The position numbers and the translations under genes were made by a program. The notes beneath the pieces were generated by a model, which was not told where the DNA came from, did not search any database, and saw only the letters and a program-made list of their open reading frames with translations. A stretch of 64,000 nt of DNA, taken from a virus. This document shows, in pieces, positions 23,239-62,545 of the stretch (the first letter of the stretch is position 1; the number at the start of each line of letters is the position of its first letter). The stretch spans positions 15,999 to 79,998 of IMG/VR virus record IMGVR_UViG_3300027857_000016; one strand, 5' to 3'.

Positions 23239-23378
23239 TTGTTCTAGTGACTGATTTAGGGTATAATAAGCACATAAATATTGTTGTGTCAGGCGCTACT
23301 TGCGATAGCCCTGACCGGATACGTCTGATAAGGAGACATATCGTGGATAGTTTACATCATCCTGCCCATTTTCAGCAA
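23239..23378 (-). ncRNA. Endonuclease leader cassette A: convergent promoters plus candidate antisense RNA
   Basis: Sense TTGTTC-17-TATAAT (23239-23267); bulged hairpin 23288-23315; RBS hairpin 23318-23342; antisense TTGCTG-18-TAAACT (23378-23349). Confidence 0.6.
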
Positions 23379-23990
23379 GCCTCTTCCTTTATCGATCCTC
23401 TTCAAGGCGCACAAGCAATCTCACAAGAAGAACGGTGGCTGCCCGTTGTAGGTTACGAAGGTTACTGTGAGATAAGTAATCTTGGCAATGTTCGTAGCCT
23501 TGGGCGTGTAGTGGAAAGACCTGTACGCGGAAATTACATCAAGCGTAACCGTACTCTCAAGCCACATCTAACGCCAAAGGGTTATGCCCGTATCCAGTTA
23601 AGCCGTGATGGAGTGTTGAAAAGTCATATGGTTCATAGACTTGTAGCCCAAGCCTTCATTCCCAATCCCTACGAATTGCCTGAAGTCAATCATAAAAATG
23701 GCATAAAGGTAGACAATCGGGTAGAAAATCTGGAATGGATAACATCTGCAGCAAACCAGGAACATGCCTACGAGATAGGACTAAGAGATCCTGTAACTAA
23801 ATATATTATCCATTGTAAAGAACTAGATATAACCACTAAAGGGACTACTAAGATGGCTGAAGCCCTTAGAGAGCGGGGTTATGTCACTGCTAACCCTGGT
23901 GCCATTTGGAATTGCATTTTTGGAACGAGTGCAACCCATTTAGGCTTGACTTTTACAGGTTCAAGGCTAGTAACCAACAGAGTTTCATGA
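23343..23990 (+). CDS. NUMOD4-HNH homing endonuclease
   Basis: ERWLPVVGYEG..ISNLGNVRS NUMOD4; VHRLVAQAFIPNP..VNHKNGIKVDNRVENLEW HNH; AGGAG RBS before GTG 23343. Confidence 0.92.
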   Translation: MDSLHHPAHFQQASSFIDPLQGAQAISQEERWLPVVGYEGYCEISNLGNVRSLGRVVERPVRGNYIKRNRTLKPHLTPKGYARIQLSRDGVLKSHMVHRLVAQAFIPNPYELPEVNHKNGIKVDNRVENLEWITSAANQEHAYEIGLRDPVTKYIIHCKELDITTKGTTKMAEALRERGYVTANPGAIWNCIFGTSATHLGLTFTGSRLVTNRVS

Positions 23991-24189
23991 AAATGGGGTT
24001 GAGGATATGACGCTCCCGCAGATTATTGAGATGTCTTGTGCTGACTGGCTCGCAGCTTCTGAGCGAAGCCAGATCGATCTCTCAAAAGGTCTTGAGATGA
24101 ACAAAGAGCGGTATCACATTGATGATCAACTGTTTCGGATTATCAAGAATACCATTAAGCAGTACGCACCAGAGAAAGATCTCGACTAA
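23980..24189 (+). pseudogene. Displaced 3' half of DUF5662-like gene
   Basis: EFHENGVEDMTLPQIIEMSCADWLAASERS aligns with EHYKNGINDMNLSDMMEMGCDWLAASSRS of 22763-23236. Confidence 0.8.
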
Positions 24190-24205
24190 ACAGGAGACAG
24201 ATATC

Positions 24206-24532
24206 ATGCGAACGTTTTTGCTCATGCGCTATGATAACCCATCGGCTCCCAGTTTCTTGGATGTAGAAGTGGCTGCTGAAGGAGTTATTTTTACCGAGAA
24301 GGTTGTGCTTTATCACCTCCATGATGAATCTATCACCATTTATGACTCAGTGGATGTCCTCAAAGGGACGTGGGTGGACGATGGCACACATTTCATCCAG
24401 TTCAAGGAGGGTATACCACTTCATGCCGTAGAGCGACATTTTACTCTGGCAGAGCAACAAGAGATTGTTCAGATCGTGGAGAAACACCTGAGACAACAAT
24501 TACGGTTACGTGGAAATACCTTGATGAAATGA
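24206..24532 (+). CDS. Hypothetical protein
   Basis: AGGAG RBS before ATG 24206. Confidence 0.65.
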   Translation: MRTFLLMRYDNPSAPSFLDVEVAAEGVIFTEKVVLYHLHDESITIYDSVDVLKGTWVDDGTHFIQFKEGIPLHAVERHFTLAEQQEIVQIVEKHLRQQLRLRGNTLMK

Positions 24533-24541
24533 GGGAAGTGG

Positions 24542-24790
24542 ATGGTGGAGCCGCCAATGGATCTACGTGTGTCAGTTGAGGGACCAGAATATCAGAAGGT
24601 GGTACATGGTGTGGGTCAACATGGCAACGGTGCCTGGTTTACGTTGACTGTTGCTGTTCCTGGCTGGACTGGTGACATCCCCTATTCCATGCTCACGGAT
24701 GTTCTTTTTAGCAGGCAGAGAGGGTCCCGGCATAGATTGCGCAAACGACCTGAGCGCATGAAGAAGAGGTGGAGGAGGGATATGCGATGA
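24542..24790 (+). CDS. Hypothetical protein
   Basis: GAGGG RBS. Confidence 0.55.
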   Translation: MVEPPMDLRVSVEGPEYQKVVHGVGQHGNGAWFTLTVAVPGWTGDIPYSMLTDVLFSRQRGSRHRLRKRPERMKKRWRRDMR

Positions 24791-24996
24791 AAGAGTTACC
24801 AGTTACGCAAACTGATACCCAACAGATCCCAATTCGATGTGAGACCACAGGCCGATTAGTAGCACGGGCAGATGAGCATGGCGTCTATTTCTTTTGTCGG
24901 CAACACAATACTCAACATCTGATGTCATGGACTGCATTGGAAAGATTAAGAGAAGATATTCGGTTGGGAGAAGTGAAGCCGAAGCAGATGGTGTGA
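24787..24996 (+). CDS. Small protein, possibly Mu Com-like zinc ribbon
   Basis: IRCETTGRLVA...FFCRQH; GGAGG RBS. Confidence 0.5.
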   Translation: MKELPVTQTDTQQIPIRCETTGRLVARADEHGVYFFCRQHNTQHLMSWTALERLREDIRLGEVKPKQMV

Positions 24997-25016
24997 GAGA
25001 ATATCAGCGTCATAAA

Positions 25017-25161
25017 TTGCCTTTTCAGGCGAATTCATGGTATAATGAGATTGGTTGATTGAGTTGTTGCCCTTGCGGTGATGGAAACACCCAAGGGCGT
25101 GATAGCAAGGAGTGACCCTTACTATGGATAGCACTATACCAGAAGGTTTTAAACGATGCAA
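25017..25161 (-). ncRNA. Endonuclease leader cassette B
   Basis: Sense TTGCCT-18-TATAAT; bulged hairpin 25069-25098; RBS hairpin 25102-25125; antisense TTGCAT-17-TATAGT with TG (25161-25133). Confidence 0.65.
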
Positions 25162-26239
25162 CAAATGTGATCTAGTGAAGCCGCTAGATGAGTTTTATAC
25201 GATGAAGAGGCCGAATGGGATAAGGAGTCCAAAGTACATATGTAAAGAGTGTGAGAATGTAGGATCTCAAAGCCGCTTCAAGCAAAAGAAAGTACAAGCA
25301 AACAAAAAGTGCGCCTATCCACCCTGTGATACTATCATTGTGCCTTCCGCAACTTATTGCTCTGCTCACTTCCGGTTAAACCCTGAAGAGGTTGAGCGAC
25401 GTGCTTCTAAATTCCCTCCTAAATCCACCTGCATTTTTCCTGGTTGTGGCAAACTAATCTCTCGCGGAGCATCATATTGTCATTATCACTATAATCGACG
25501 TGAACGATCCCACGTCACTAAATCTAAGATGTCTATGTCTGCTAAGAGACGAGCTAATACTCCAGAAGGCAGGGCAAGAATGTCTCAAGCTGCCAGCCTT
25601 GGAGGGAAAACATGGAAGGGACGGCACCACACACAGGAAACAAGAGATAAGATACGTGGAAAGCGTGCAATGCAAATTCTTTCTCGTGAAAGTCTGGAGA
25701 AGACGTGGAGTAAAACGCGAGGTCGACCTGGCAATCGTGGCGGTATCCCCCATACAGAGGAAGTAAAGGCGAGGATCTCAACAACCCTACAGTCTAAGCG
25801 AGAGCACTTATCGCGGAAGGGTAGAGAGCGTTATGAACGTGAGACAGAGGAGCAACGGGAAAAACGACTTAATCACTGGATACAGGCTGGACAAGAGAGT
25901 ATAGCTAAGATTTTTAGTGGTACTACCATCGAAATGTTTATTGCTCAGCAACTCGACACTCTAGGTATTGAGTATGAAATGCAAAAGAAGATTGGTTACT
26001 ATATTGCTGACTTTTGTATTCCTTCTCATATGATAGTGATAGAAGCAATGGGATGTTTCTGGCATGGGTGTGAGCAGTGTGGATATAATGAACCTTGGCA
26101 TATACTCAAGCGAGAGAAGGAGAAAGTGCGAACCGAAAGGATAGTGAAGAAGGGATATTCTGTTGTAGCCCTTTGGGAACACGAGATTCGTCGAGCAATG
26201 CAAGATAGCGGCTATATCTTGCAATTAGGAATTGAATAG
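25124..26239 (+). CDS. Zn-finger/NUMOD3 plus DUF559/Vsr-like endonuclease
   Basis: CxxC repeats, GRHHTQETRDKI NUMOD3, ADFCIP..VIEAMGCFWHG..LWEHEI nuclease. Confidence 0.85.
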   Translation: MDSTIPEGFKRCNKCDLVKPLDEFYTMKRPNGIRSPKYICKECENVGSQSRFKQKKVQANKKCAYPPCDTIIVPSATYCSAHFRLNPEEVERRASKFPPKSTCIFPGCGKLISRGASYCHYHYNRRERSHVTKSKMSMSAKRRANTPEGRARMSQAASLGGKTWKGRHHTQETRDKIRGKRAMQILSRESLEKTWSKTRGRPGNRGGIPHTEEVKARISTTLQSKREHLSRKGRERYERETEEQREKRLNHWIQAGQESIAKIFSGTTIEMFIAQQLDTLGIEYEMQKKIGYYIADFCIPSHMIVIEAMGCFWHGCEQCGYNEPWHILKREKEKVRTERIVKKGYSVVALWEHEIRRAMQDSGYILQLGIE

Positions 26240-26333
26240 GCTATACTCTAAAGTAACAAAATATAATTGATGAAGAGCCATAGCGTAAGACGCATAGGCC
26301 GTCCATTTCAAATTGAAGGGACGGCCCCTTTTT

Positions 26334-28187
26334 ATGGCAATAGACCTCTCCTCACAGACAATAGACGTTTGGCCTGAAGGTGCTGAAGAGCAGGGAATTG
26401 CTCGTTCCATGACCATGGACGAGCGCAATAAAGTTGATGACTCAGACTTTGCGTGGCCCGACGCCCCCGACCATCCAAAGTACCCCGTTCACGACCAGGC
26501 TCATCTGGATGCTGCTGCAAAATTGATAGGACGTGCCCCTGCTGACAAACAGGACGAAATCAAAGCGCGTGCCAAAAGAATCGCTAAGCGTAAGGGTCTC
26601 AAACTTCCTGATAGCTGGGAAGAGGGCAGCGCAAAAGACGATAGCACCAAAGATCGTGCCGTTGGAACGGAAGCGTCCTCTCCCAACATCCAGGTCACGA
26701 TTGACGGAGCCATGCTTGCTGCCACCACTACGAGTACCAACGTTATTGCCGATATCACCCTCCACCGAGCAGCTGGAATGAATCACGATCCCTTCACGGG
26801 TACACACAGTCATGCGCACCCAGCATTTGGCAGTCAAGGGGACGACGAGATGCATGAACATGAGCATAGCCACGATGGAGATGCTGACCACAAGCATAGT
26901 CATGCCCACACGTCGGATGAAAAGAAGGATCGCTCTGTGGGTTCCATCGTTCAGGTGAGTGACCGTCATGTGATGTCTCTGCCTCTTGTGCGTATCGATG
27001 CAGCAAAACGGGAGGTCTGGGGGCAGGCAACGGCTGAAGTCCCTGACAGTTATGGGACGATCTTTGGATACTATCCCGAAGCCTGGACGCAGTGGCGAGG
27101 CAATATCAGGGAGCAGCATGATCCCAAGAAGGCGGTAGGCAAGCGTGTTGATCTTGATTGTAATGATCAGGAACGCGCTGTTTATGTGGGATCTCGTGTG
27201 AGCCGTGGAGCGCAAGACACCTGGCTCAAGGTAGAGGACAACGTGCTGACAGGGTATAGCGCCTCCATTATCCCCGATGCTGAGTATGGCAATGACCCAC
27301 GACGCTGGCCAAAGAAAGAATACAACGGAAAAGAATATCCCTACCTCCCCCGCTATACCGTTGCTGAGTTATCCCTCGTTGATAATCCAGCCTGTCCTGG
27401 CTGCAATATCCAGATTGTGCGAGCTGATGGTTTTGCTACCGATGTTCTTGACCTGACTGAAGAAGAACCAGAGCAACCCAAACCAGTAGAGCGAGCAGGG
27501 GCCAGAGTCTCTGGCGCAACACGCGTCTCGAATCACAAATCCATTGGACATACCCTTCGAGCAGCTATCTCACAAATGCAGAACTGTGGGGGTGACTGCC
27601 CTCAGTGTACTGCTGCTATGAAAATCATTGATCCTGATGGGGATGGCGATATCGATCTTGGAGGCTATGACGACTCTGATGGTGACTGGCAATCGCTCTA
27701 CAATGGCAAACAAGAGGACATGGAGCGCGTGGTCACTGAACTCATCGAACGCTCACTCCAACCCGTCTATGCGCGATTTCAGGGCATTGCAGGCACCCTT
27801 GCTCGCAATAATGCTCTTCCAACGAATATTGATTCTCTGATTTCATCCTCCATCTCACGCGCATTTGAAGCGATTGACGCCAAGCTTACGGCGCTTCCGA
27901 CAGAGGCAAGCCTCGCTGAAGTACGCGCTGAATTGTCAGCGGTAAAAGAGCGGGTTGTCCAGATTGCAGAGCAGCCGATGCCAGGGGGGCCGATTCTCAA
28001 TGCAGGCGTGATGCCACGGGCGATTGAAAAGCAACTCCCAACTGATCCTCCCTACGCACCACCACGACCATCGATGGGGTCGGTGTATGACGCGATTGCA
28101 ACGATGTCACGGCAGGGTCAGCTCGATACCGAAGATAAACAAGTTGATGCAATGTACGCTGGCCTGCTGGCACAGCGCAGGAGATAG
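26334..28187 (+). CDS. Prohead protease/scaffold fusion with His-rich insert
   Basis: REVWGQATAE, NIREQHD..AVGK, GYSASI, ELSLVDNPA (HK97-type protease); C-terminal coil. Confidence 0.85.
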   Translation: MAIDLSSQTIDVWPEGAEEQGIARSMTMDERNKVDDSDFAWPDAPDHPKYPVHDQAHLDAAAKLIGRAPADKQDEIKARAKRIAKRKGLKLPDSWEEGSAKDDSTKDRAVGTEASSPNIQVTIDGAMLAATTTSTNVIADITLHRAAGMNHDPFTGTHSHAHPAFGSQGDDEMHEHEHSHDGDADHKHSHAHTSDEKKDRSVGSIVQVSDRHVMSLPLVRIDAAKREVWGQATAEVPDSYGTIFGYYPEAWTQWRGNIREQHDPKKAVGKRVDLDCNDQERAVYVGSRVSRGAQDTWLKVEDNVLTGYSASIIPDAEYGNDPRRWPKKEYNGKEYPYLPRYTVAELSLVDNPACPGCNIQIVRADGFATDVLDLTEEEPEQPKPVERAGARVSGATRVSNHKSIGHTLRAAISQMQNCGGDCPQCTAAMKIIDPDGDGDIDLGGYDDSDGDWQSLYNGKQEDMERVVTELIERSLQPVYARFQGIAGTLARNNALPTNIDSLISSSISRAFEAIDAKLTALPTEASLAEVRAELSAVKERVVQIAEQPMPGGPILNAGVMPRAIEKQLPTDPPYAPPRPSMGSVYDAIATMSRQGQLDTEDKQVDAMYAGLLAQRRR

Positions 28188-28189
28188 AC

Positions 28190-29965
28190 ATGACTGTAAC
28201 GGATAACGTCATACAGGGTCAATTGCCACCAGGCGCACAAAAGAGCGTTGGCGATAGTAAACATGCCGCTGGTGTGATTGATGAGTCCTTGTATACCGAA
28301 ACCGATGTGCTTGCTAATCAGGCTCGCATGATGGCACGTGCTCGCAATGGCATCGCGTATGAAAACGGAGACGAATTTTCAGACCGCTTCGTGAGGGATG
28401 TGCGCGGGATGAACATGCCAAAACAATACGTTCATCAACGATTGAGCCAGGATACCATCAACGCTCTTCAGACTGGCAGCCAACAGCGCGATCAGCAGTA
28501 TATCGGGAATAACGCCGATTGGACCGGGTACTATCTGGAGCCATTGGCGAAATTTATTGTGCCGTATGACACTCCAGTGCGCAATATGCTGCCACGCTCA
28601 CCAAGTGTAGGCATCGATGTCGAGAACTGGCGTGCCATCACGGATGTGTTTGGCGGTACTGGCCCAACGGTCGGACAGTTCATCCTCGCACAGCAGACCG
28701 CACCACAGAAGGCATCATATACCTGGGCGAATAAAAGCAATGTCCTGCGTCAACTTGCCTTCTCCGACGTGGTGACCTTTGAGTCTGAGTTGTTTGGTCG
28801 GATGTTCGAGCCGGATGTTCGAGCCAAGGTTGCTAGTAAACTTGCCCCGTCGCTTATGCTTGGGCAAGAGGTCTGGTACTTAAACGCCGCGCAGAACCTG
28901 TGGAATCCACCGCCTCCAAATACGCCAACCACAGCAACAACAGGTGGAACCGTTGCCGCTGCTACCTATTGGATCATCACAACCGCCGTGAATGCACAGG
29001 GCGAGACGTTGGCATACTCATTGCCACCAGCTTCTTCTTCTGTCCCATTCGCTATCTCTCAGACTACCTCTGGGAGTACCAGCACACTCTCATTCAATAT
29101 CATGAGGGTCCCGAACGCGGTCAGTTACAACGTCTATGTCGGATCTGGTTCAACACAACCTGCAAACTCTGCAATGTGGCGACAGTCAGCAACCACCCAG
29201 TTTGGCGGTTCGACTGCCCTCAATGATCCCGGCGGACTAGCCAGTGGGTACTTCAACGTCACGATGAGTGCAGCGCCTGCCACTTCTGGTACAGCATACT
29301 CAACGGTGGTGACCGCAGGCAATACGGCGGTTGCCTATACTTCTGGTGGTGGTGGCACTCCAGCCAACCAGACACTGACCTTTGATGGCATCCAGTCACT
29401 CACCTACCTCAATGCGGGCACACTTTCAACCGTTGGTGTTGGTGGCGAGACAGCAACAGTCAGACGCGTATCAGATACAGGTGGCGCTCTCGCTAAGACG
29501 GATATTGACGGGTGGCTAGAGGCCATGTACCTCAATGCCCGTGCCAACCCTGAATGCCTCCTTGTCTCCGTGAAAGATCACAAGGCCCTCAGCAATATCA
29601 TCACCACATCCACCAATTATCGCGTCAACGTCCAGCCCACCGGGCCGTCTCAGACCGATTTGGTCGGAGGAGGCCGTGCGACGAAATGGATCAATCAGAC
29701 GACAGGACGAGTAATGGACATCATTATGACTCCGTATCTGATGCAAGGGACGATTTTGGCTCTTTCGCTTACCCTTCCTTTCCAGGTAGCAGAAATTGAT
29801 AAACCGCCATTACGGGTATCTGTGAACAGAGATATGTGGGCAATGGAATATCCACCTGACCAGTCTCACACTACACAATGGCTCTATAGCTGTTTTTCAA
29901 GCGAGACAGTTGTAAACCAATTTTTGGGCGGTGCTGGAGCGCTCGTAGGCTTAGTGACTGCTTAA
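28190..29965 (+). CDS. Major capsid protein with inserted beta-rich domain
   Basis: Position after protease; LEPLAKFIVPYDTPVRNMLPR; central YWIITTAVNAQGET..SYNVYVG insertion. Confidence 0.85.
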   Translation: MTVTDNVIQGQLPPGAQKSVGDSKHAAGVIDESLYTETDVLANQARMMARARNGIAYENGDEFSDRFVRDVRGMNMPKQYVHQRLSQDTINALQTGSQQRDQQYIGNNADWTGYYLEPLAKFIVPYDTPVRNMLPRSPSVGIDVENWRAITDVFGGTGPTVGQFILAQQTAPQKASYTWANKSNVLRQLAFSDVVTFESELFGRMFEPDVRAKVASKLAPSLMLGQEVWYLNAAQNLWNPPPPNTPTTATTGGTVAAATYWIITTAVNAQGETLAYSLPPASSSVPFAISQTTSGSTSTLSFNIMRVPNAVSYNVYVGSGSTQPANSAMWRQSATTQFGGSTALNDPGGLASGYFNVTMSAAPATSGTAYSTVVTAGNTAVAYTSGGGGTPANQTLTFDGIQSLTYLNAGTLSTVGVGGETATVRRVSDTGGALAKTDIDGWLEAMYLNARANPECLLVSVKDHKALSNIITTSTNYRVNVQPTGPSQTDLVGGGRATKWINQTTGRVMDIIMTPYLMQGTILALSLTLPFQVAEIDKPPLRVSVNRDMWAMEYPPDQSHTTQWLYSCFSSETVVNQFLGGAGALVGLVTA

Positions 29966-30016
29966 ATAAATAGTGTATCTATTAGTCCGATCTGGCTCAA
30001 GAAGCCGGTTTATCGG

Positions 30017-30145
30017 TTGACCTTAACAACAAAATAGAGTACAATGCATGTGGTTGTCTAGGGACGGATTGATCATCCGTTCCGAAGAAGCGTTACCTTG
30101 ACGCTCTGGCAACCACCACGATCAAGGTTAAACTTAAGGAGTTTA
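30017..30145 (+). ncRNA. Promoter plus three-way-junction/pseudoknot leader RNA
   Basis: TTGACC-17-TACAAT; P1 30050-30061/30106-30116; loop ACCTTGA complementary to TCAAGGT (30122-30128); SD hairpin 30129-30145. Confidence 0.6.
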
Positions 30146-30150
30146 GAACT

Positions 30151-31023
30151 ATGCCTCAGTGTGGCATCTATCAGATCGTAAACACGATCACTGGTGACTG
30201 TTATGTTGGCAGTGCTGTTAATTTTCATGTACGCAAATTGCGTCACCTCAACGAATTACGGCAAGGTATCCATCATTCTCTCCATCTCCAACGTGCATAC
30301 GATAAGTACGGCAAAGATGTCTTCGTTTTCACTTTTCTCGAAGATGTTATAAGAGATCGAGATACCCTCTTCCAGCGTGAAAGCCATTGGGTACAGCAAC
30401 TACATCCTCAGTACAACACAGGCAAAGTAAATGCAACTGCCCTTGGCGCGAAACGGACAGAAGAAACCCGTAAGCGCATAACTGAAAAAGCTACGGGACG
30501 GAAGCATTCTGAGGAAACTAGGCGAAAGCAATCAGAACGTAAGTTCGGTATCAAACAATCTCCCGAATTCATACAGAAGCGCTCAGAAGGCATGCTTGGT
30601 CACGCAGTTTCTGAGGAAAATCGCCAGAAATTTGCTGAAAGAAGTCGTGAGATGTGGGCAAATCGCACACCTGAAGAAAAGCGTGCGATTGTAGAAAAGC
30701 GTTCACCTGAAGTTCAAGAGAAGAATCGAGAACGAATGCGTGAACTTGGCAAAGATCCTGACAGGATTGCACATATCAAGCAAGTGCATTTGGGTGCCAA
30801 GCGGTCTGAAGAGACACGTCAGAAGCAACGTGAGGCGTGGGTAAGACGGAAACAAAGACAACTGGAGAATCCGAAACCTCCAGTAGAAAATACGCAGCCT
30901 CCCAAAGAGTATAAGTACTCTGAGGAGACTCGAAGAAGGATGTCTGAAGGGAAAAAGGCATCCTGGGACAAAAAGAAAGCCGCGCAAGCGGAAACGATAC
31001 AACAACAAAATCTGTTTGATTAA
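30151..31023 (+). CDS. GIY-YIG homing endonuclease with NUMOD3 repeats
   Basis: GIYQIVN..YVGSA..R..RH..LQRAYDKYG..PQYN; repeated KRSEETR.K. Confidence 0.93.
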   Translation: MPQCGIYQIVNTITGDCYVGSAVNFHVRKLRHLNELRQGIHHSLHLQRAYDKYGKDVFVFTFLEDVIRDRDTLFQRESHWVQQLHPQYNTGKVNATALGAKRTEETRKRITEKATGRKHSEETRRKQSERKFGIKQSPEFIQKRSEGMLGHAVSEENRQKFAERSREMWANRTPEEKRAIVEKRSPEVQEKNRERMRELGKDPDRIAHIKQVHLGAKRSEETRQKQREAWVRRKQRQLENPKPPVENTQPPKEYKYSEETRRRMSEGKKASWDKKKAAQAETIQQQNLFD

Positions 31024-31077
31024 CTCCTCTTCCTCCATTGGAACGAGTTAACAAACGTTCTAATGGAGGTTTCCTCT

Positions 31078-31425: not shown

Positions 31426-31465
31426 TCAGGGCATCCATGTGGGATGGAAGGGATGAGAGAGAACG

Positions 31466-32908: not shown

Positions 32909-32934
32909 ATCGAGGAAGAAGGAGGGGCATCATC

Positions 32935-33156: not shown

Positions 33157-33162
33157 GGGTGA

Positions 33163-34065: not shown

Positions 34066-34094
34066 TTCATGAGAGGTGAAGCATTTCAGAGGAC

Positions 34095-37784: not shown

Positions 37785-37799
37785 TCATGAAAGCGTTGT

Positions 37800-44533: not shown

Positions 44534-46135
44534 ATGCCTATTTCGGCCACCGCTGCACGCGGAATCGTTGATATTATGCTAGAGGCGAATAACGGTGAAC
44601 AGTTATTACTTGCCTCTACTCCGGTTATTGCAACAATAACCGGCATCACTGCTCCTAGTGGTAGTACGGGTATGAGATTTCACATACGCATTACCAATTG
44701 GACGGCTTCTGGGACCGTGACGATTACTGGCACTGGCACACCAGGCAACACGGAGACCTACAACATTGCCGCTCCAACTGCTCAACAGACCCAGAGTGCG
44801 CAGTTAGCAAGCAATGAGTATGTCAGTGTGAATGCCTACACGGCAATCACGAATATTACCACCACTGGACTCACCAACGGCACTATCACTGTGTATGGTA
44901 TTTACGCTGGCAAGTTTACCGTGCCTTCCATCATGACCTCCAACCGTGTGGTGAAAGTCTATAGCCCGAACGAGCACAATAGTTTCCTGGAGCGTGACAA
45001 GAAGATCCTTCACCTTGTGAACAACACGACTGTTGATCTCAAGCAAGACGTCTACGCGGATTTGAGCTTGTGGTGGCCCTACATGATGATGGGGGCACCT
45101 ACCATCACGACGTTGCCATCCACACCCACGTCGCTCTTTGCTGCTGCTGCCATCTCGGCAACCCAGTCTCTGACGACACAGCCAACGGCACCGGGCATGA
45201 AGCTCATCTTTACCATTACTGCCTTTACCGTTGCAGGAACATTGACCATTGCCGGGACATCCTATGGTCAAGCAGTGACCGAAACAATTTCCATCACTGC
45301 TGCCGGTACCTACTACTCTAGCAATGTCTATTCTGCGGTGAATGCTTCTGGTATTACCAACGCCACGACGGCTGCGACGATGGCGATAACTGGCGTCTAT
45401 GGCTGGCAGTTGGTCTTCTTATCAGGCGGCAACCTCTATAGTGCAGCGATTGAGTGGTACGACGGTGCAGGCTCATGGACGCATCCATTCTCCTTCGCCA
45501 CTGAGGGCGATTTCGATATCAAGGTCCAGACGGAGGCGACCCTGACCCTCAAAGGCAAGGCACAAGACAAATTGCCAATTGGCGATAGAACGACGACCCC
45601 ACTTACGGGCGTGAATCGTATCGCCTCCATCGGTGCCAACCTCAACGATGAGCCAATTGTGGGATGGCAAAGTGCTGTGTATCTTGACCCTATTACGGGC
45701 ACGTCGCAAACGACCGCCTTTATACACTGCGAGGAGTTAAAGGTCGCCCTCAAGGTGCCGCAAGAAGATCATTTTACCTTTACGAATAGCCAGAACTACA
45801 ACAGGGCCTATGCCGTCAAGCGGGAATGCACCTGTGAGGCCGTCCTCGATTTCATCGATATGCTGCAGTGGGAACAATTCAGGCAAAACCTCAAGCAGTA
45901 CCTCGCCTTCCAGTTTTTGGGTCAGTACATCGGGACCACGGGTGGGTCAGCGCAATTCAAAAGTTGGACTTGGACGCTTCCTGTCCGAAGTGATGGGCAA
46001 TTCGATGTGACCTCTGATCCAGCAAAGGGCAACGTGCAAGCCAAGGCGATGTTTAGGACGGAATATGATTCGTCACTGGGGGGGAGCTACAAACTCGTGG
46101 TGGTTACACAACTTCCGCCTACCTACCCCGCGTGA
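44534..46135 (+). CDS. Major tail tube protein with two inserted domains
   Basis: Precedes chaperone and TMP; duplicated APxG.GM...IT..T..GT.TI.GT inserts. Confidence 0.8.
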   Translation: MPISATAARGIVDIMLEANNGEQLLLASTPVIATITGITAPSGSTGMRFHIRITNWTASGTVTITGTGTPGNTETYNIAAPTAQQTQSAQLASNEYVSVNAYTAITNITTTGLTNGTITVYGIYAGKFTVPSIMTSNRVVKVYSPNEHNSFLERDKKILHLVNNTTVDLKQDVYADLSLWWPYMMMGAPTITTLPSTPTSLFAAAAISATQSLTTQPTAPGMKLIFTITAFTVAGTLTIAGTSYGQAVTETISITAAGTYYSSNVYSAVNASGITNATTAATMAITGVYGWQLVFLSGGNLYSAAIEWYDGAGSWTHPFSFATEGDFDIKVQTEATLTLKGKAQDKLPIGDRTTTPLTGVNRIASIGANLNDEPIVGWQSAVYLDPITGTSQTTAFIHCEELKVALKVPQEDHFTFTNSQNYNRAYAVKRECTCEAVLDFIDMLQWEQFRQNLKQYLAFQFLGQYIGTTGGSAQFKSWTWTLPVRSDGQFDVTSDPAKGNVQAKAMFRTEYDSSLGGSYKLVVVTQLPPTYPA

Positions 46136-47052
46136 TCTGACCATAAAGTAGGAGCATCAGAAGGAGGTAATTTTTTTATGGCATTTCGCTTTTTGTGTGC
46201 TAAGGACATCTTAGCACGGGTTTCAGGCGAGGGTTTTCGCCCTCGACTAGCATTGCCTATGGCACGACAATGCTCTTCAGAAAGTTTCCTCCCTTTGAGC
46301 GAGGTGGACGTTTTTGCCCGTGTCTCATCTGACTTTTTCCGCCCTCTGCTTGCCTTAGCCATATTAGCACGGGCTTCAGCAGAAAAAGGTTTACGCTTTA
46401 CGCCTTTCTTTGCTTCAGATATGTTTTTGCATTCTTCCTGTGATTTCACACGTCCTTTATGGGCTTTTGAGATTTTAGCACGAGCTTCTAGTGAGGGCGT
46501 CACACCTTTCATGCCTGCTCGTATGTTTTCTTTCCATTCGGAAGAAAAAGGTGGGCGTTTTCGACCTTTTGTCGTAGCAGACATCTTAGCTTTGGTTTCA
46601 TCCGATAAATGCTTTCCCTTATTCGCTTCGGAAAGTCTTTGCGCTAAATCAGTTGTCGCGTACGCATTTCTCACGCTCGCAGAAATCTTTGCCCTGATCT
46701 CTGGTGTCAATGATTTCATTCCAATTCCACCCGGAGCTTCATTTGTGAGAGGTGCTCCTTGAGAACGGTAGTATTGAATCCAGTATTGCTCACGCTCTTG
46801 CCATTCATCGACAGAGACTTCATCGATGATATCCAGGAGTGGTTCCAATCCGAGCGATTTGAGATGTTTGACCCAGCGGCCTCTATGTGTCGCTTCTTCG
46901 CTATTCCTAATATGTACTCTCAATCGGTGCTGGGGATCATTCGACTTGCCCACGTATCGAACTTCGCGTGTGACAGGATCGCTAAGGATGTATATCCAGG
47001 TAGTTTGAGGGAGAGGGTTGTCCAATTGATCATGAGGTGGTACAGTGTCCAC
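46123..47052 (-). CDS. GIY-YIG homing endonuclease with NUMOD3 repeats
   Basis: WIYILSDP..RYVGKS..RLRVH..EQYWI..LTN; many GRK.S.ETRAKMS repeats; AGGAG RBS before GTG 47052; overlaps the tail tube stop. Confidence 0.9.
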   Translation of the reverse strand: MDTVPPHDQLDNPLPQTTWIYILSDPVTREVRYVGKSNDPQHRLRVHIRNSEEATHRGRWVKHLKSLGLEPLLDIIDEVSVDEWQEREQYWIQYYRSQGAPLTNEAPGGIGMKSLTPEIRAKISASVRNAYATTDLAQRLSEANKGKHLSDETKAKMSATTKGRKRPPFSSEWKENIRAGMKGVTPSLEARAKISKAHKGRVKSQEECKNISEAKKGVKRKPFSAEARANMAKASRGRKKSDETRAKTSTSLKGRKLSEEHCRAIGNASRGRKPSPETRAKMSLAHKKRNAIKKLPPSDAPTLWSDHAG

Positions 47053-47159
47053 GATATGTCTCCTTATACAGACGTATCCACGCCAGGGGATGGGTCCAAC
47101 CATCGCTCTGGCACAACATTTTACCTCCTCAGTATACCACATACCAAACATTCGTTCAA
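47018..47159 (+). ncRNA. Endonuclease leader cassette C
   Basis: Antisense TTGTCC-17-TACAGT with TG (47018-47046); RBS hairpin 47053-47078; bulged hairpin 47082-47112; sense TTGAAC-17-TATACT (47159-47131). Confidence 0.65.
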
Positions 47160-47265
47160 GCAATTTCACCGTATAATTTCTTGTTTTTCGTTACTCAAAA
47201 ACAGAAAACAAGAAGGGCGATACTAATTAAGATGATGTTGATAGAAGTGATGAGGAGAGAACAAC

Positions 47266-47718
47266 ATGGGTGCATTTGATGATGCAGCGAATATTCTGCT
47301 GCCAGATCCGAGCGATACAGAAGGGTCAGCAGCATTCCGTCGAAAGTGGGGATGGGATGCACACGAGCAGGTCATCCTGAAAGGGGCGTACACGGCAGGA
47401 GATCTCGAAGCCGTTTCCAATGCTGTGCTCGTGAGTGGAAAGAGGGGCGAGAGCATTATGCAGGCAGGAGCGACTCGCATTAAGTTGCTTGATCGTCTCA
47501 TTCTCGATTGGACCTTTGCTCGCAATGGGGTCAAGGTGCCAAAGACACTCGATGCCATCAGACGTCTTCCTGCAAACTACACCACGCCCATTCTTGAGGC
47601 CTGTGACAAGTTGGCATCAGCCATGAATGAGGAGGAGCAGGAGGATTTTTTGGACTTTGTGAACGGGCATTCCTCGGACGACTCCGTACCGATGAAACTG
47701 CTCCAGAAGCGATCATAG
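47266..47718 (+). CDS. Tail assembly chaperone (gpG-like)
   Basis: Between tail tube and TMP; ILDWTF..IRRLP. Confidence 0.8.
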   Translation: MGAFDDAANILLPDPSDTEGSAAFRRKWGWDAHEQVILKGAYTAGDLEAVSNAVLVSGKRGESIMQAGATRIKLLDRLILDWTFARNGVKVPKTLDAIRRLPANYTTPILEACDKLASAMNEEEQEDFLDFVNGHSSDDSVPMKLLQKRS

Positions 47719-52854: not shown

Positions 52855-52897
52855 TAATACAAGTATTGTATATGTGGAAGGGAGTAAGATGTAATAC

Positions 52898-55816: not shown

Positions 55817-55832
55817 ATGGGAGGTAAAAGAG

Positions 55833-56591: not shown

Positions 56592-56656
56592 ACATCATAG
56601 TTATACTGCAACTTTGACGAGGAGGATCGGTAGAGAAGGTATGTACGTGGGGGTAG

Positions 56657-57247
56657 ATGATGGGATTGGTTGAAGAGTTACTAGGGTGCCCTCTCTTAGA
56701 GATTACACGCTCCTACTGGGCAGTCAAACTCACAACAGGTGAATGGATCTGCGAGGCACGTGTCAAGACCGACCTCTATAACGGTACTGAGCGCCAGTTC
56801 GATTGGTCGAACGATTTAGTTGCGAATGAAGACGTGCTCAAAATCACCCAACTCTGGCTTCTCTGCCCGCCCTCAAAGACTTCACCTCTTGGCAATACAG
56901 CGTATCTCACCATCGGCGAGCCAGGGACTGCCTTTCAGTTCAAGGTGGCAACAGCAGATAGCAACGTCGCCATGACTGCACGTAGTCTCCAGATACACGT
57001 CATAGGCAAAGTTACCAACAAAGAGACGGGCGATTGTGATGTCTTCGCATGGGATGATGCGGAGCAGGGCCTGATCACTCCTCAAACAATGATTTACGAC
57101 CCGCTTACCGGAGGTGCAAAGCGAGACGCATCAGGCAACCTGATCTACGCAGGGAAGACCAACATCTACAACTTTCACTCGTGGAGACCAGATTCTCTAG
57201 CTCCTTTAGGGAGATTAGAACTCAGAACTGTGGGGGTCAGAGTATAA
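56657..57247 (+). CDS. Hypothetical tail-region protein
   Basis: 196-aa ORF. Confidence 0.65.
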   Translation: MMGLVEELLGCPLLEITRSYWAVKLTTGEWICEARVKTDLYNGTERQFDWSNDLVANEDVLKITQLWLLCPPSKTSPLGNTAYLTIGEPGTAFQFKVATADSNVAMTARSLQIHVIGKVTNKETGDCDVFAWDDAEQGLITPQTMIYDPLTGGAKRDASGNLIYAGKTNIYNFHSWRPDSLAPLGRLELRTVGVRV

Positions 57248-57248
57248 C

Positions 57249-60053: not shown

Positions 60054-60110
60054 TTTTGTAGGTGTGTCAAAGATAGGGGATGTGTGGTTAGCGGAACGGG
60101 AAACAAAGAC

Positions 60111-60473
60111 ATGCAGGCACCACAAGATCAGGTAGCACTGTTGCAATTTCGCGTCGATGCACTTGAACGAACCGTGTCGGGGTTTAATCAGCAACTCAAT
60201 TCCTACGTGCGAGAGCGGGAAAATGACCTGAAGCTCAAAATACTGCAAGATACCGCCAATCATATTGAAGATGAGGTAAACGGTCTCAAAAAAGATATCC
60301 GTTCGCAAGGCGATGAGGTGAAGATGCTCAAAGATGAGTTGCAAAAGCGCGATGCATCTCAACGCGAAAGCCAGGATAAACTCCAAATCCGCGTACTCGT
60401 CTGGGCGGTAGGTATCTTCATGAGTATCGTTTTGCTGCTCCTAGCAGCGTATTTCTCACATATTCTGCACTAA
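60111..60473 (+). CDS. Coiled-coil plus C-terminal TM protein (holin/XhlA-like)
   Basis: Coil followed by VLVWAVGIFMSIVLLLLAAYF; start may be 60084. Confidence 0.65.
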   Translation: MQAPQDQVALLQFRVDALERTVSGFNQQLNSYVRERENDLKLKILQDTANHIEDEVNGLKKDIRSQGDEVKMLKDELQKRDASQRESQDKLQIRVLVWAVGIFMSIVLLLLAAYFSHILH

Positions 60474-60484
60474 AGAGGTGTCTT

Positions 60485-61135
60485 ATGAGAGCACGCGTAC
60501 AGAAAACGACCGTGATGGTGGTTGTCCCGACCATCCTCTTCCTGTTACTCATGCTTATAGGTTTCGATCTCTATCCCGTGGTATCGGGAAATGATGAATT
60601 GGTTATTGAACAGCAAGCCTGGCTTCAGGTGGTACGGAATGAATATCTTGCCAAGGATATCCTTATTCTTGCGTATAGACCTGCCACCTATCACTCTCAG
60701 GCGGTGAGCGATCTCCAGGTCATTCTCCCTGGCCTCCAGCAAACACAGACTGGACTCCTGAAAGGTGACGCTTCTCTCGGACTTCCAAACAATCCATCGG
60801 ATGAGGTCAGACAGATACTCCAACGAGCACAATCTGACTACGTTCCTCTTGTGGCAGCACTCAAGGTCATTCTCGCCCATTCTGATGGACCGGTTGACCC
60901 AATACAACTTAACATTGTCATGATGCATGAGTATCCCTATTCCGTCACGATGGCTCAACTTGCTATCCTCATTCAGCAACAGGCGGAGGCAACCAATCTT
61001 CACCTCCTCATCATTAAGATAAGCATCAAGACGCTGCTTCTTGTAGTGATTAGTGCGCACTATCTGTTCTCAGGGAGAAAGGCGTTCAATAGACTGGTGG
61101 AGATAGAAGAGGAGGCGCAGAAGAAGCAAGCGTAG
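60485..61135 (+). CDS. 2-TM protein with extracytoplasmic helical bundle
   Basis: TM-helical domain-TM, sensor-domain-like. Confidence 0.7.
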   Translation: MRARVQKTTVMVVVPTILFLLLMLIGFDLYPVVSGNDELVIEQQAWLQVVRNEYLAKDILILAYRPATYHSQAVSDLQVILPGLQQTQTGLLKGDASLGLPNNPSDEVRQILQRAQSDYVPLVAALKVILAHSDGPVDPIQLNIVMMHEYPYSVTMAQLAILIQQQAEATNLHLLIIKISIKTLLLVVISAHYLFSGRKAFNRLVEIEEEAQKKQA

Positions 61136-61241
61136 GGTGAGGGTGTGAGTTAGTTGGCACATCCTCTGAAATTCGTTCGCAGTGTGAACAGATGCTACAA
61201 TAGAGAGTGAGGATGTTGTTGGAAGATGAGAGGATGACCAT

Positions 61242-61538
61242 ATGGCGGCTGACGCTCAAAAATTAACTCAGATCACCCTTATCTGTGATGACAAAGGCTA
61301 TGGGGGCTACCAACCTGGAGAAGTGGGGAGAGTCAAAGATGGGGTCTGGATGGTATGTTGCCCTCTTTGCAATAATTTGGGGGAACTGAGAACTCACCAC
61401 GTCACAGAACATGACGACCAGACCATCACTATCTCTCCATCGCTAGTATGTCACGGGTCAATCTACGAATCCCCTGGTGTCTACCGCTCTTGTACTGCCC
61501 ACTACTTTGTTGAGCGCAATCAGATCAGGTGGTGTTAG
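61242..61538 (+). CDS. DUF6527-like small Cys/His protein
   Basis: CCPLC..TITISPSLVC..CTAHYFVERNQIRW. Confidence 0.65.
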   Translation: MAADAQKLTQITLICDDKGYGGYQPGEVGRVKDGVWMVCCPLCNNLGELRTHHVTEHDDQTITISPSLVCHGSIYESPGVYRSCTAHYFVERNQIRWC

Positions 61539-61575
61539 TATGTCTGACTCTGCTTATGTAACTGCCTACATCCAA

Positions 61576-62454
61576 TCAGAACAACCTACCCCCTTCCGGC
61601 CATTCATGTGGCAACTTATCATGCTTACTCAGATTACATGTAGGACAAGACAGGACAACATAATCAACATCGTTGCGCGGACCCTCCTCAATGCGACTCA
61701 AAGGGATGGTATGCTCCAAGTGGAAAATGTATTGTCCATTCTTCTTCTCAAACTTAGCATGATCACAAGCACTATAGTAGCATCTGTACTTCTGTGCTTT
61801 CAACTTTTGTTGGATTTGTTGTTCAGTAAGAATACCAGGAATAGCTTTCTTTCGTGCTCCACGATTGTGATTATAGGTTTTGTATTTATCTGGATTGTTT
61901 TTACAATATGCACGCAGCCGTTGCTTATTCTCTTCAGCATGAGAGTTTCGATAGGCTTTCTGCCTAATCGCATCGTCCTCACGAAACATCTCATGATAAG
62001 TCTTACGTTCGATACTAGCACACAGCTTACATCTCGTTTGCACTCCATAACGATGAGTTTTGCTCACATGAAAGTATTCACGCGTAGCAGGCAAAATCCT
62101 TTTACATTTAATACATCTTTTATGTCCCATTTCAATAATTTCAACTTCTCTTCTGCGTGGCGTGGCAACACATTTTTTACACCAAGGAAACAAACCATCG
62201 GAACGGTTTCTGTCAGAATGAAAGAATTCAGATGTGGAAGGGTGCCAATTCTTACACTTGGTACACCGTTTTTCCCCCAATCGATATTCTCGAACTATGC
62301 TGTAACTCTTATTGCCTTTGCATATCTTACAACTGGAATGAAAGCCATCCTTCTTTCTGCTGTCTTTGTGAAAGTAGATGTTTGTTGCGGGGAAAAGTTC
62401 TTTACATTTGGAACATTGCTTGAAAGAGGATGTATCGGGTATAGTGTCGCTCAT
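61576..62454 (-). CDS. HNH endonuclease with three N-terminal Zn-finger repeats
   Basis: 3x KxCxKCK..P.T...FH.....G....CK.C; HLEHTIPLSR..SCPTCNLSKH. Confidence 0.9.
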   Translation of the reverse strand: MSDTIPDTSSFKQCSKCKELFPATNIYFHKDSRKKDGFHSSCKICKGNKSYSIVREYRLGEKRCTKCKNWHPSTSEFFHSDRNRSDGLFPWCKKCVATPRRREVEIIEMGHKRCIKCKRILPATREYFHVSKTHRYGVQTRCKLCASIERKTYHEMFREDDAIRQKAYRNSHAEENKQRLRAYCKNNPDKYKTYNHNRGARKKAIPGILTEQQIQQKLKAQKYRCYYSACDHAKFEKKNGQYIFHLEHTIPLSRIEEGPRNDVDYVVLSCPTCNLSKHDKLPHEWPEGGRLF

Positions 62455-62545
62455 GGAAGATCTCCCAGGTCTTTCATCACGCCAGAGGGTATGTCCAGTA
62501 CCGCTCTGGCAACAATATTTCTCAATACATCAATTATATCACAAA
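62416..62545 (+). ncRNA. Endonuclease leader cassette D
   Basis: Antisense TTGCTT-18-TATAGT (62416-62445); RBS hairpin 62453-62477; bulged hairpin 62481-62510; sense extended -10 TGATATAAT (minus, 62541-62533). Confidence 0.65.

What the first reader, a model, noticed from the sequence alone, without database searches (positions are those of the whole stretch)
23318..62477. Leader cassettes look like built-in antisense RNA genes that silence each nuclease
Seen: each copy has a second hairpin over the RBS/start. Its mismatches are A-C on the mRNA strand but G-U on the opposite strand (A and C GATATGTCT/AGACGTATC; B ATAGTAAGG/CCTTGCTAT; D ATGGAAGATCT/AGGTCTTTCAT with two; plus one in hairpin C: 6 of 6). 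This holds for genes on both strands. Each ORF start hides a backwards promoter (TTGCTG-18-TAAACT, TTGCAT-17-TATAGT, TTGTCC-17-TACAGT, TTGCTT-18-TATAGT), which explains the similar N-termini VDSLH, MDSTIP, VDTVP and MSDTIP. Anti-SD bases lie in or beside the antisense loop. Known: IS10 RNA-OUT, IS200 art200 and type I antitoxins work this way. Inference: a portable convergent-promoter antisense system keeping toxic nucleases off in the lysogen, possibly addictive.
Basis: partly seen in the sequence, partly recalled or inferred. Interest (0 to 1): 0.9.

Follow-up and report, generated by a model that had tools for sequence, protein, structure and literature searches.

The report
Antisense-RNA leader cassette on phage nucleases
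Four unrelated homing-nuclease genes of an uncultured soil phage, and at least 23 more in other metagenomic contigs, carry the same portable ~140-bp leader, whose sequence evolution indicates that it encodes a structured backward (antisense) RNA, most likely a built-in brake on nuclease translation; no RNA data exist yet to prove it.

Summary
All four window copies have a sigma-70-type promoter, a bulged hairpin (hp1), a second hairpin (hp2) carrying the Shine-Dalgarno sequence, the start codon, and a backward promoter-like element in codons 3-15. I found 23 more distinct copies in viral and metagenome contigs. None turned up in 185,579 bacterial and archaeal species genomes or in cultured phages. 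Across the 27 copies:
- Non-Watson-Crick stem pairs are G-U on the antisense strand about 44 times, against at most 3 doubtful A-C pairs.
- The antisense strand folds better in 27 of 27 copies.
- hp1 covaries at 9 of 11 pairs.
- The backward -10 (TAnnnT) is present in 27 of 27. It is kept through rare NTA codons in 24 of 24 in-frame copies (2.6 expected), while the residue varies I/L/V.
- TTG lies 17-18 nt upstream in 16 of 25 distinct copies (<1 expected).
- In two copies the cassette ends as a short leader ORF coupled to the nuclease ORF, so it is a separable module.

A cis-antisense RNA gene is therefore well supported comparatively. Silencing of translation is inferred, because no RNA data exist. 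The "lysogen/addiction" part has no support. I rate it a new variant of a known kind, resembling IS10 RNA-OUT and P22 sar, and not described for homing endonucleases.

The parts
23239..23267 (+). Cassette A: forward promoter (TTGTTC-17-TATAAT)
   Evidence: aligned with the other copies
23288..23315 (-). Cassette A: hairpin 1, a bulged stem that folds best on the antisense strand
23318..23342 (-). Cassette A: hairpin 2 over the Shine-Dalgarno sequence; its one A-C on the mRNA strand is G-U on the antisense strand
23343..23990 (+). Nuclease A, NUMOD4 + HNH_3, 215 aa, GTG start
23349..23378 (-). Cassette A: backward promoter TTGCTG-18-TAAACT inside codons 3-12
23275..23342 (-). Predicted antisense RNA A: start at 23342, 3' end not defined (about 23275, or read-through)
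   Evidence: inferred; no RNA data
25017..25046 (+). Cassette B: forward promoter TTGCCT-18-TATAAT with TG extension
25069..25098 (-). Cassette B: hairpin 1 with bulged G
25102..25125 (-). Cassette B: hairpin 2 over the Shine-Dalgarno sequence and AUG, with antisense G-U
25124..26239 (+). Nuclease B, NUMOD3 + Vsr/DUF559-type, 371 aa
25133..25161 (-). Cassette B: backward promoter TTGCAT-17-(TGG)TATAGT
25055..25126 (-). Predicted antisense RNA B: start near 25126, 3' end not defined
   Evidence: inferred
47131..47159 (-). Cassette C: forward promoter TTGAAC-17-TATACT with TG extension
47082..47112 (+). Cassette C: hairpin 1 with bulged G and one antisense G-U
47053..47078 (+). Cassette C: hairpin 2, with stem identical to A's
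46123..47052 (-). Nuclease C, GIY-YIG + NUMOD3, 309 aa, GTG start. Together with its cassette it is an insertion of about 1.1 kb relative to two related phages
47018..47046 (+). Cassette C: backward promoter TTGTCC-17-(TGG)TACAGT
47053..47125 (+). Predicted antisense RNA C: start at 47053. It may read on into the next + strand gene (47266-47718)
   Evidence: inferred
62533..62561 (-). Cassette D: forward promoter (TAGCTT-17-TATAAT)
62481..62510 (+). Cassette D: hairpin 1 with bulged G
62453..62477 (+). Cassette D: hairpin 2 over the Shine-Dalgarno sequence and AUG, with two antisense G-U pairs
61576..62454 (-). Nuclease D, HNH, 292 aa
62416..62445 (+). Cassette D: backward promoter TTGCTT-18-TATAGT
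62452..62525 (+). Predicted antisense RNA D: start near 62452, 3' end not defined
   Evidence: inferred

Best explanation
Each nuclease gene carries a self-contained, portable expression module of about 140 bp. In order it contains:
- a strong forward sigma-70-type promoter, usually TGGTATAAT;
- a short AU-rich leader;
- a GC-rich bulged hairpin (hp1);
- a second hairpin (hp2) that presents the Shine-Dalgarno sequence in or next to its loop;
- the start codon;
- a backward promoter written into the first 12-15 codons, with its -10 in codons 3-4 or 4-5 and its -35 about 17-18 nt further in.

The backward promoter makes a small RNA. This RNA begins at or within 1-2 nt of the base of hp2, folds into the two hairpins, and is fully complementary to the mRNA leader. 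Its anti-Shine-Dalgarno bases (CUCC) lie in or beside the hp2 loop.

By pairing with the leader, and perhaps also by collision of the two convergent polymerases, it keeps nuclease translation low.

The same DNA palindromes are tuned by wobble. G-U pairs keep the antisense hairpins stable, while the matching A-C mismatches weaken the mRNA hairpins, so the mRNA remains translatable when the antisense RNA is absent.

Shown here: the anatomy, its conservation, the strand asymmetry, the covariation and the modularity. Inferred: that the RNA is transcribed, where it ends, and that its effect is repression.
For: 1. Family size. There are 27 distinct copies: 4 in the window, 2 in a related phage, 6 from a viral-contig pattern scan, and 15 from a metagenome scan plus nhmmer. 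They sit in front of HNH_3, HNH, GIY-YIG, Vsr/DUF559-type and endonuclease VII genes.

2. Strand asymmetry.
- hp1 has 15 genuine antisense G-U cells at 4 positions and no genuine A-C.
- hp2, scored with a strand-symmetric helix finder, has 206 Watson-Crick pairs, 29 antisense G-U and at most 3 doubtful A-C.
- The antisense minimum free energy is lower in 27 of 27 copies, mean -29.2 against -23.2 kcal/mol.
- Per hairpin, the means are -8.9 against -5.4 for hp2 and -18.3 against -14.9 for hp1.

3. Controls for the asymmetry.
- Two other nuclease leaders of the same phage fold better on the sense strand.
- So do most chance hits of the search pattern.
- The asymmetry follows gene orientation on both genome strands.

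4. Covariation in hp1. 97.8% of cells are paired, 9 of 11 pairs show compensatory changes, 0 of 500 shuffles reach the observed score, and structures slid by one or more columns pair in only 36-44% of cells.

5. Backward promoter.
- TAnnnT is present in 27 of 27 copies.
- The codon supplying the TA is always NTA (ATA, CTA, TTA or GTA) in 24 of 24 in-frame copies. Only 2.6 are expected from this phage's codon usage, and the residue changes among I, L and V.
- TTG lies 17-18 nt upstream in 16 of 25 distinct copies, against less than 1 expected. It falls in two codon frames and under different residues.
- Four of the ten copies without that TTG carry a TGn extension (TGG or TGA); the other six carry a 5-of-6 -10 preceded by GGG or GGT.
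- The predicted +1 is a purine at the first base of hp2 in most copies.

6. Modularity.
- In L007:8701 and L037:1458 the cassette ORF is only 26 and 22 codons long. Its stop overlaps the nuclease ATG, which has its own Shine-Dalgarno sequence.
- Hairpins are shuffled between copies: A and C share hp2, C and D share the base of hp1, and B's hp2 recurs with other hp1s.
- Element C plus its cassette is absent from the same site in two related phages.
Against: - There is no expression evidence. The only sequencing run that holds this DNA is a DNA soil metagenome.
- Each backward promoter alone is only a 7-8 of 12 consensus match, below the generic scan's threshold.
- About 9 of 25 copies lack a recognisable -35.
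- No canonical intrinsic terminator follows hp1 on the antisense strand. A U3-5 tract begins only 6-8 nt after the stem, so the length of the RNA is unknown and read-through is possible.
- The copies are related, so cell counts overstate the number of independent events. I estimate about 20-25 independent wobble events.
- The host and its promoter rules are unknown.
- The direction of the effect, repression or protection, is not determined by sequence.
Confidence: 0.55

Rival explanations
1. The antisense RNA exists but acts positively or neutrally on the nuclease mRNA. For example, duplex formation could protect the leader from RNase E, or create a processing site, rather than silencing translation.
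For: All the structural and promoter evidence fits this reading equally well. Antisense protection of mRNA during phage infection has been documented in Prochlorococcus (PMC3113571, listed). CfrI in cyanophage S-PM2 is co-expressed with the homing endonuclease gene it overlaps (PMC2984593).
Against: The overlap covers the Shine-Dalgarno sequence and usually the start codon, which in known cases blocks ribosome entry. The anti-Shine-Dalgarno bases are displayed in the hp2 loop. Homing endonucleases are generally held at low expression (PMC2988022).
Confidence: 0.1
2. The backward promoter is an outward-facing promoter that the mobile element carries to keep neighbouring phage genes expressed after insertion. 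On this reading the hairpins are 5' stabilisers or processing sites of that transcript, not a regulator of the nuclease.
For: In copies C and D the backward promoter points at the next + strand phage gene (47266-47718 and 62613-63569). No terminator follows hp1. T4 homing endonuclease genes are known to embed promoters for neighbouring genes (PMC2988022).
Against: About half of the copies, including A, B, E, F, H and J, lie in the same direction as their neighbours. In those the backward transcript would run antisense into the upstream gene. This reading does not explain why the transcript starts at hp2 or why it is complementary to the RBS.
Confidence: 0.12
3. This is a purely sense-strand leader, like those of T4 homing endonucleases. 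hp2 limits ribosome access and hp1 stabilises the 5' end. The backward promoter look-alike and the N-terminal peptide are conserved for translation or by common descent.
For: RBS hairpins are the known control for T4 I-TevI, I-TevII, I-TevIII, segB and Aeh1 mobE (PMC2988022). hp2 does hold the Shine-Dalgarno sequence and start codon.
Against: - All wobble pairs are on the wrong strand for this reading.
- The sense hp2 is weak, mean -5.4 kcal/mol, with the Shine-Dalgarno sequence mostly in the loop.
- Sense-strand z-scores are unremarkable.
- Retention of NTA codons in 24 of 24 copies, and TTG at a fixed distance in two frames, are not explained by a peptide.
- In two copies the peptide is not part of the nuclease at all.
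Confidence: 0.1
4. This is a DNA-level module. On this reading the conserved hairpins and promoters mainly serve as homology patches or structures for recombination that shuffles nuclease genes, as PeSL cassettes do in T4-type phages.
For: Hairpins are shared in a mosaic pattern between copies. The cassette moves with the nuclease gene. PeSLs are a precedent (PMC2839356 and PMC4122927).
Against: DNA-level pairing would be blind to G-T versus A-C, yet the asymmetry is about 44 to 3 or fewer and follows gene orientation on both genome strands. Recombination does not require a TAnnnT/TTG pair at promoter spacing. Shuffling can be a consequence of the repeats rather than their function.
Confidence: 0.08

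Closest known systems
IS10/Tn10 RNA-OUT and RNA-IN (from my own knowledge of the textbook system; not re-read here)
   Same: The gene of a mobile element's DNA-cutting enzyme is controlled by a small, stable stem-loop RNA. That RNA is made from a promoter inside the 5' end of the ORF, convergent with the gene's own promoter, and is complementary to the RBS and start region.
   Different: - Two hairpins and an overlap of about 70-95 nt, rather than one stem-loop and about 36 nt.
- The elements are free-standing homing endonuclease genes in phages, not insertion sequences.
- One cassette serves at least five nuclease families.
- The target's Shine-Dalgarno sequence sits in a hairpin loop.
- No sequence or Rfam similarity.
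Phage P22 sar RNA controlling ant (from my own knowledge)
   Same: A phage-encoded small antisense RNA, made from a promoter convergent with the target's promoter, pairs with the target's RBS.
   Different: The target is a single regulatory gene in a temperate phage, not a repeated portable cassette on selfish nuclease genes.
RBS-sequestering hairpins of T4-type homing endonuclease genes: I-TevI, I-TevII, I-TevIII, segB, Aeh1 mobE (PMC2988022)
   Same: Homing endonuclease translation is limited by an RNA hairpin at the RBS, and the elements bring their own regulatory signals.
   Different: In T4 the hairpin is a very stable sense-strand structure that is bypassed by a late promoter placed inside it. 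Here the sense hairpin is deliberately weak (A-C mismatches), the stable version is on the opposite strand, and a backward promoter is conserved.
PeSL mobile regulatory cassettes of T4-type phages (PMC2839356, PMC4122927)
   Same: These are short, repeated promoter-plus-stem-loop cassettes that accompany accessory genes and show recombination between copies.
   Different: A PeSL is a terminator stem-loop followed by an early promoter, lies upstream of ORFans and has no antisense component. Here the hairpins lie downstream of the promoter in the 5' UTR, with a second, convergent promoter, and the cassettes are tied to nuclease genes.
CfrI antisense RNA of cyanophage S-PM2 (PMC2984593)
   Same: An experimentally seen antisense RNA overlapping a phage homing endonuclease gene.
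   Different: CfrI is about 225 nt, links the endonuclease gene to psbA, and has no known function. It is not a repeated leader cassette and does not cover the RBS of several nuclease families.

Membership tests
Cis-antisense RNA control of a mobile-element enzyme (IS10 RNA-OUT type) | A promoter inside the 5' end of the ORF firing against the gene's own promoter | tested here: met
   TAnnnT is present in 27 of 27 copies, kept by NTA codons in 24 of 24 in-frame copies (2.6 expected). TTG lies 17-18 nt upstream in 16 of 25 distinct copies. This is comparative evidence only; activity has not been shown.
Cis-antisense RNA control of a mobile-element enzyme (IS10 RNA-OUT type) | The antisense RNA itself forms a stable, conserved stem-loop | tested here: met
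   hp1 covaries at 9 of 11 pairs. Wobble pairs occur on the antisense strand only. The antisense minimum free energy is lower in 27 of 27 copies.
Cis-antisense RNA control of a mobile-element enzyme (IS10 RNA-OUT type) | The antisense transcript is made and overlaps the RBS and start codon | not testable with these tools
   The geometry predicts it: +1 falls at or within 1-2 nt of the base of hp2. No RNA run holds this DNA.
Cis-antisense RNA control of a mobile-element enzyme (IS10 RNA-OUT type) | Repression of translation by pairing | not testable with these tools
   Needs reporter or in vitro assays.
Type I toxin-antitoxin system | A small (usually under 60 aa) hydrophobic toxin peptide as the target | tested here: not met
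   The targets are 215-371-aa HNH, GIY-YIG or Vsr-type nucleases with NUMOD DNA-binding motifs.
Type I toxin-antitoxin system | Addiction, meaning a stable toxin mRNA paired with an unstable antitoxin RNA | not testable with these tools
   There is no support from context: no PF00589 integrase and no copies in bacterial or archaeal species genomes.
PeSL cassettes | A terminator stem-loop placed upstream of an early promoter in intergenic DNA | tested here: not met
   Both hairpins lie downstream of the -10, inside the 5' UTR. The PeSL definition is taken from PMC2839356.
T4-type RBS-sequestering hairpin | A very stable sense-strand hairpin burying the Shine-Dalgarno sequence, relieved by a promoter inside the hairpin | tested here: not met
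   The sense hp2 averages -5.4 kcal/mol, has A-C mismatches and shows the Shine-Dalgarno sequence in its loop. The forward promoter lies upstream of both hairpins.
Any Rfam 15 family | A covariance-model match | tested here: not met
   No hit at gathering score over the window, and none at E<=1 over 23200-25200.

The most novel reading that the evidence does not exclude
This would be a previously undescribed RNA gene family: a portable, two-promoter 'on/brake' module that homing endonuclease genes of at least five nuclease families exchange by recombination. One DNA palindrome would be wobble-coded to give a stable antisense repressor RNA (G-U) and a deliberately weak, translatable mRNA hairpin (A-C). 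It would be the first dedicated antisense control system for homing endonucleases. Because some copies in one genome share hairpins (A and C), it could also form a small trans-acting network.
Probability: 0.5. Interest if true: 0.75.

Novelty: new variant of a known kind. Interest (0 to 1): 0.66.

Why it matters
How selfish nuclease genes avoid harming the genome that carries them is known mainly from T4, where control works through promoter choice, RBS hairpins and autorepression. A self-contained antisense brake that travels with the gene would be a different and general solution. It works in either orientation and is shared by unrelated nucleases.

It would also explain the odd conserved N-termini, and it would add a new structured RNA family absent from Rfam.

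The wobble asymmetry gives a clean sequence-only way to tell which strand of a palindrome is the functional RNA. The module is compact (about 140 bp) and could be tested directly as a reporter fusion.

Tried and rejected
- **RNA evidence.** No RNA holder was listed for window 21000-29000; the only run is a DNA soil metagenome that may be the source sample.
- **Rfam.** No match.
- **Cultured phage genomes (INPHARED).**
  - The locus gave no match in near mode.
  - A putative terminase gave no match in protein mode.
  - Two cassettes gave no match in distant mode.
- **First two pattern scans of viral contigs.** One returned only chance hits and the other nothing.
- **Scan of 185,579 species genomes.** It returned 70 pattern hits, none a true cassette by nhmmer.
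- **nhmmer over related phage contigs.** No copies in G001-G004, nor in the first 16 kb of this record.
- **Generic promoter and terminator scan.** It does not flag the backward promoters, and finds no terminator after hp1.
- **Alignment of hp2.** The MAFFT alignments put hp2 in inconsistent registers. I therefore counted hp2 pairs per sequence with a strand-symmetric helix finder and did not build a covariance model.
- **First version of that helix finder.** It added spurious 3-bp outer extensions carrying A-C. These were examined and discounted.
- **One script call** returned nothing.
- **Readings considered and rejected.**
  - An RNA-guided nuclease guide (of the omega-RNA type): these are ordinary DNA-binding homing endonucleases from several families.
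  - Mutational strand bias: the asymmetry follows gene orientation on both genome strands, and other leaders of the same phage show the opposite bias.

Full report
**Context**

The window is bases 15999-79998 of an 80-kb IMG/VR virus record, estimated to be about 53% complete. It carries a phage structural module: terminase-like, portal and head-protease genes. It has no close relative among cultured phages. The one sequencing run holding it is a soil metagenome.

**Checking the observation**

The four ORFs start at 23343 (+), 25124 (+), 47052 (-) and 62454 (-). They encode nucleases of four different architectures:
- NUMOD4 + HNH_3
- NUMOD3 + Vsr/DUF559-type
- GIY-YIG + NUMOD3
- HNH

Their upstream regions nevertheless align. 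Each has:
- a -10 box TATAAT or TATACT, mostly with a TG extension;
- a TTGTTG-type leader;
- a GC-rich hairpin with a single bulged base (hp1);
- a linker GGCGTG(G)A (CCGGA in A);
- a second hairpin (hp2) holding the Shine-Dalgarno sequence;
- the start codon;
- a similar N-terminus.

Folding both strands shows that the antisense strand is the well-folded one. Its z-scores are -3.7, -4.9, -4.8 and -5.6, against -1.0, -2.5, -1.3 and -2.1 for the mRNA strand.

**Enlarging the family**

| Source | Result |
|---|---|
| nhmmer on related phage contigs fetched through the portal protein | 2 more copies in one contig (L007) |
| Pattern built from three conserved blocks, viral contigs | 6 further copies |
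| Same pattern, 185,579 bacterial and archaeal species genomes | Only chance hits |
| Cultured phage genomes | Nothing |

The genes behind the new copies are again nucleases: Vsr/DUF559 + NUMOD3, HNH and endonuclease VII. Two gave no Pfam hit. The cassette is therefore a real, recurrent element of uncultured phages and is tied to homing-endonuclease-type genes.

It is not on every nuclease gene. Two other GIY-YIG genes of this phage have unrelated leaders, at 619-1263 on the minus strand and 30151-31023 on the plus strand.

**Which strand carries the structure**

In hp1, aligned over 25 sequences:
- 97.8% of cells pair on the antisense strand.
- 9 of 11 pairs show compensatory changes.
- No shuffle out of 500 reaches the observed covariation.
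- Structures slid by one or more columns pair in only 36-44% of cells.

All 15 genuine non-Watson-Crick cells in hp1 are G-U on the antisense strand, at four different positions. None is A-C. The bulged base is G in 24 of the 25.

For hp2 I used a helix finder that treats G-U and A-C alike. It gives 206 Watson-Crick pairs, 29 antisense G-U and 3 A-C. On inspection all three A-C are alternative placements or end extensions.

The antisense fold is the more stable in 27 of 27 copies, mean -29.2 against -23.2 kcal/mol. Per hairpin the means are -8.9 against -5.4 for hp2 and -18.3 against -14.9 for hp1.

Three controls argue against a trivial bias:
- The asymmetry follows gene orientation on both genome strands.
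- Two other nuclease leaders of the same phage fold better on the sense strand.
- Most chance hits of the search pattern also fold better on the sense strand.

Allowing for shared descent, I estimate 20-25 independent wobble events, all on one strand.

**The backward promoter**

Taken singly, the four window promoters match only 7-8 of 12 consensus positions, and the generic scan misses them. Across the family the picture is different.
- A TAnnnT hexamer lies on the antisense strand over codons 3-4 or 4-5 in 27 of 27 copies.
- The codon that supplies its TA is ATA, CTA, TTA or GTA in all 24 in-frame copies. These are rare codons in this phage: 9% of Ile codons, 13% of Leu and 11% of Val. Only 2.6 would be expected.
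- The encoded residue drifts among I, L and V. The constraint is therefore on the DNA, not on the peptide.
- TTG lies 17 or 18 nt upstream in 16 of 25 distinct copies, against less than 1 expected. It falls in two different codon frames and under varied residues.
- Of the copies without that TTG, four have a TGn extension; the other six have a 5-of-6 -10 preceded by GGG or GGT.
- Six bases after the -10, the predicted start is a purine that is the first base of hp2 in most copies.

**Modularity**

In L007:8701 and L037:1458 the cassette's ORF is only 26 and 22 codons long. It ends in a stop that overlaps the ATG of the nuclease ORF, and that ORF has its own strong Shine-Dalgarno sequence. The cassette's 'N-terminus' is therefore not part of the enzyme.

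Hairpins are exchanged between copies:
- A and C share hp2 but not hp1.
- C and D share the base of hp1.
- One metagenome copy has D's hp1 with another copy's hp2.
- B's hp2 recurs with two other hp1s.

Element C with its cassette is an insertion of about 1.1 kb between two genes. In two related phages the same two genes are separated by only 23-30 nt. About half of all copies face the same way as their neighbours and half face the other way.

**Mechanism**

The best reading is a convergent-promoter cis-antisense system. The backward RNA starts at hp2, folds into hp2 and hp1, and displays CUCC in or beside the hp2 loop. That loop faces the GGAG in the loop of the mRNA's own hp2. The RNA is fully complementary to the leader.

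Pairing would block ribosome entry, and polymerase collision may add to the effect.

The wobble pattern suggests dual tuning. The repressor RNA is kept stable, while the mRNA hairpin is kept weak enough to be translated.

Two points are open. First, the 3' end is unknown: no canonical terminator follows hp1, and a U3-5 tract begins 6-8 nt after it. Second, the direction of the effect is inferred by analogy.

The rivals are a protective antisense RNA, an outward promoter serving neighbouring genes, a sense-only leader, and a DNA-level recombination module. They are weighed in their own sections. None of them explains the strand-specific wobble, the promoter-spaced DNA constraints and the orientation independence all together.

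**Comparison with known systems and novelty**

In logic the system resembles IS10 RNA-OUT/RNA-IN and P22 sar. It differs from both in anatomy and in the kind of element it serves.

It also differs from the known controls of phage homing endonucleases, which are sense-strand RBS hairpins relieved by late promoters, promoter choice and autorepression (PMC2988022). PeSL cassettes are a terminator followed by a promoter (PMC2839356 and PMC4122927). CfrI of S-PM2 is a single antisense RNA of about 225 nt with unknown function (PMC2984593).

I found no description of a shared antisense leader for homing endonucleases in the searched literature.

There is no PF00589 integrase in the 80 kb, there are no prophage copies, and the targets are not type I toxins.

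Other first-stage notes on this genome describe the same cassette and a different leader at 30017-30150. I tested both here.

**Verdict**

- A structured antisense-strand RNA gene is likely, about 0.8.
- Repression of the nuclease is the best-supported function, about 0.55.
- It is a new variant of a known kind of control, and a new RNA family.

Noticed in passing
window 1210-1275 (-), upstream of the GIY-YIG gene 619-1263 (-): A fifth nuclease gene has a different leader: a long AU-rich hairpin after a TTGATT/TATAGT promoter. It folds better on the sense strand (-19.2 against -16.1 kcal/mol), the opposite of the cassette family.
   Followed up: partly
window 30046-30155 (+), upstream of the GIY-YIG gene 30151-31023 (+): A sixth nuclease gene has a larger multi-helix leader that also folds better on the sense strand (-38.5 against -32.1 kcal/mol, z -3.4). 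Another first-stage note calls it a three-way junction with a pseudoknot. I did not test the pseudoknot.
   Followed up: partly
L007:8701-8783 and L037:1458-1526: In these two copies the cassette ORF is a 26- or 22-codon leader ORF. Its stop overlaps the nuclease ATG (TAATG, ATGATG), just after a strong AAGGAGG or AGGAGG. This looks like translational coupling.
   Followed up: yes
window 46123-47265, compared with L014:22621-22645 and L019:9867-9898: Nuclease C plus its cassette is an insertion of about 1.1 kb between two conserved genes. In two related phages those genes are 23-30 nt apart. The 3' end of the nuclease ORF overlaps the upstream gene's end by 13 nt.
   Followed up: partly
L009:14856-15760 (-): A related phage has a GIY-YIG gene (37% identical to nuclease C) at the portal-protease site where this phage has A and B. 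It has a TTGACC-17-TATAAT promoter but neither of the two hairpins.
   Followed up: partly
window 23318-23342 compared with 47053-47078; 47082-47112 compared with 62481-62510: Hairpins are shared in a mosaic pattern within one genome: A and C have the same hp2 stem, and C and D have the same hp1 base. This suggests recombination in the conserved linker, and possible cross-regulation in trans.
   Followed up: partly
window 22763-24189: Another first-stage note proposes that element A brought a replacement 3' half for the gene it invaded, flanked by CAGAG repeats. I did not test this.
   Followed up: no
12 nt after hp1 on the antisense strand, all 27 copies: There is a conserved A/C-rich spacer followed by a U3-5 tract (for example ACAACAAUAUUU). 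It could be a non-canonical terminator, or simply the complement of the A-rich 5' end of the mRNA.
   Followed up: partly
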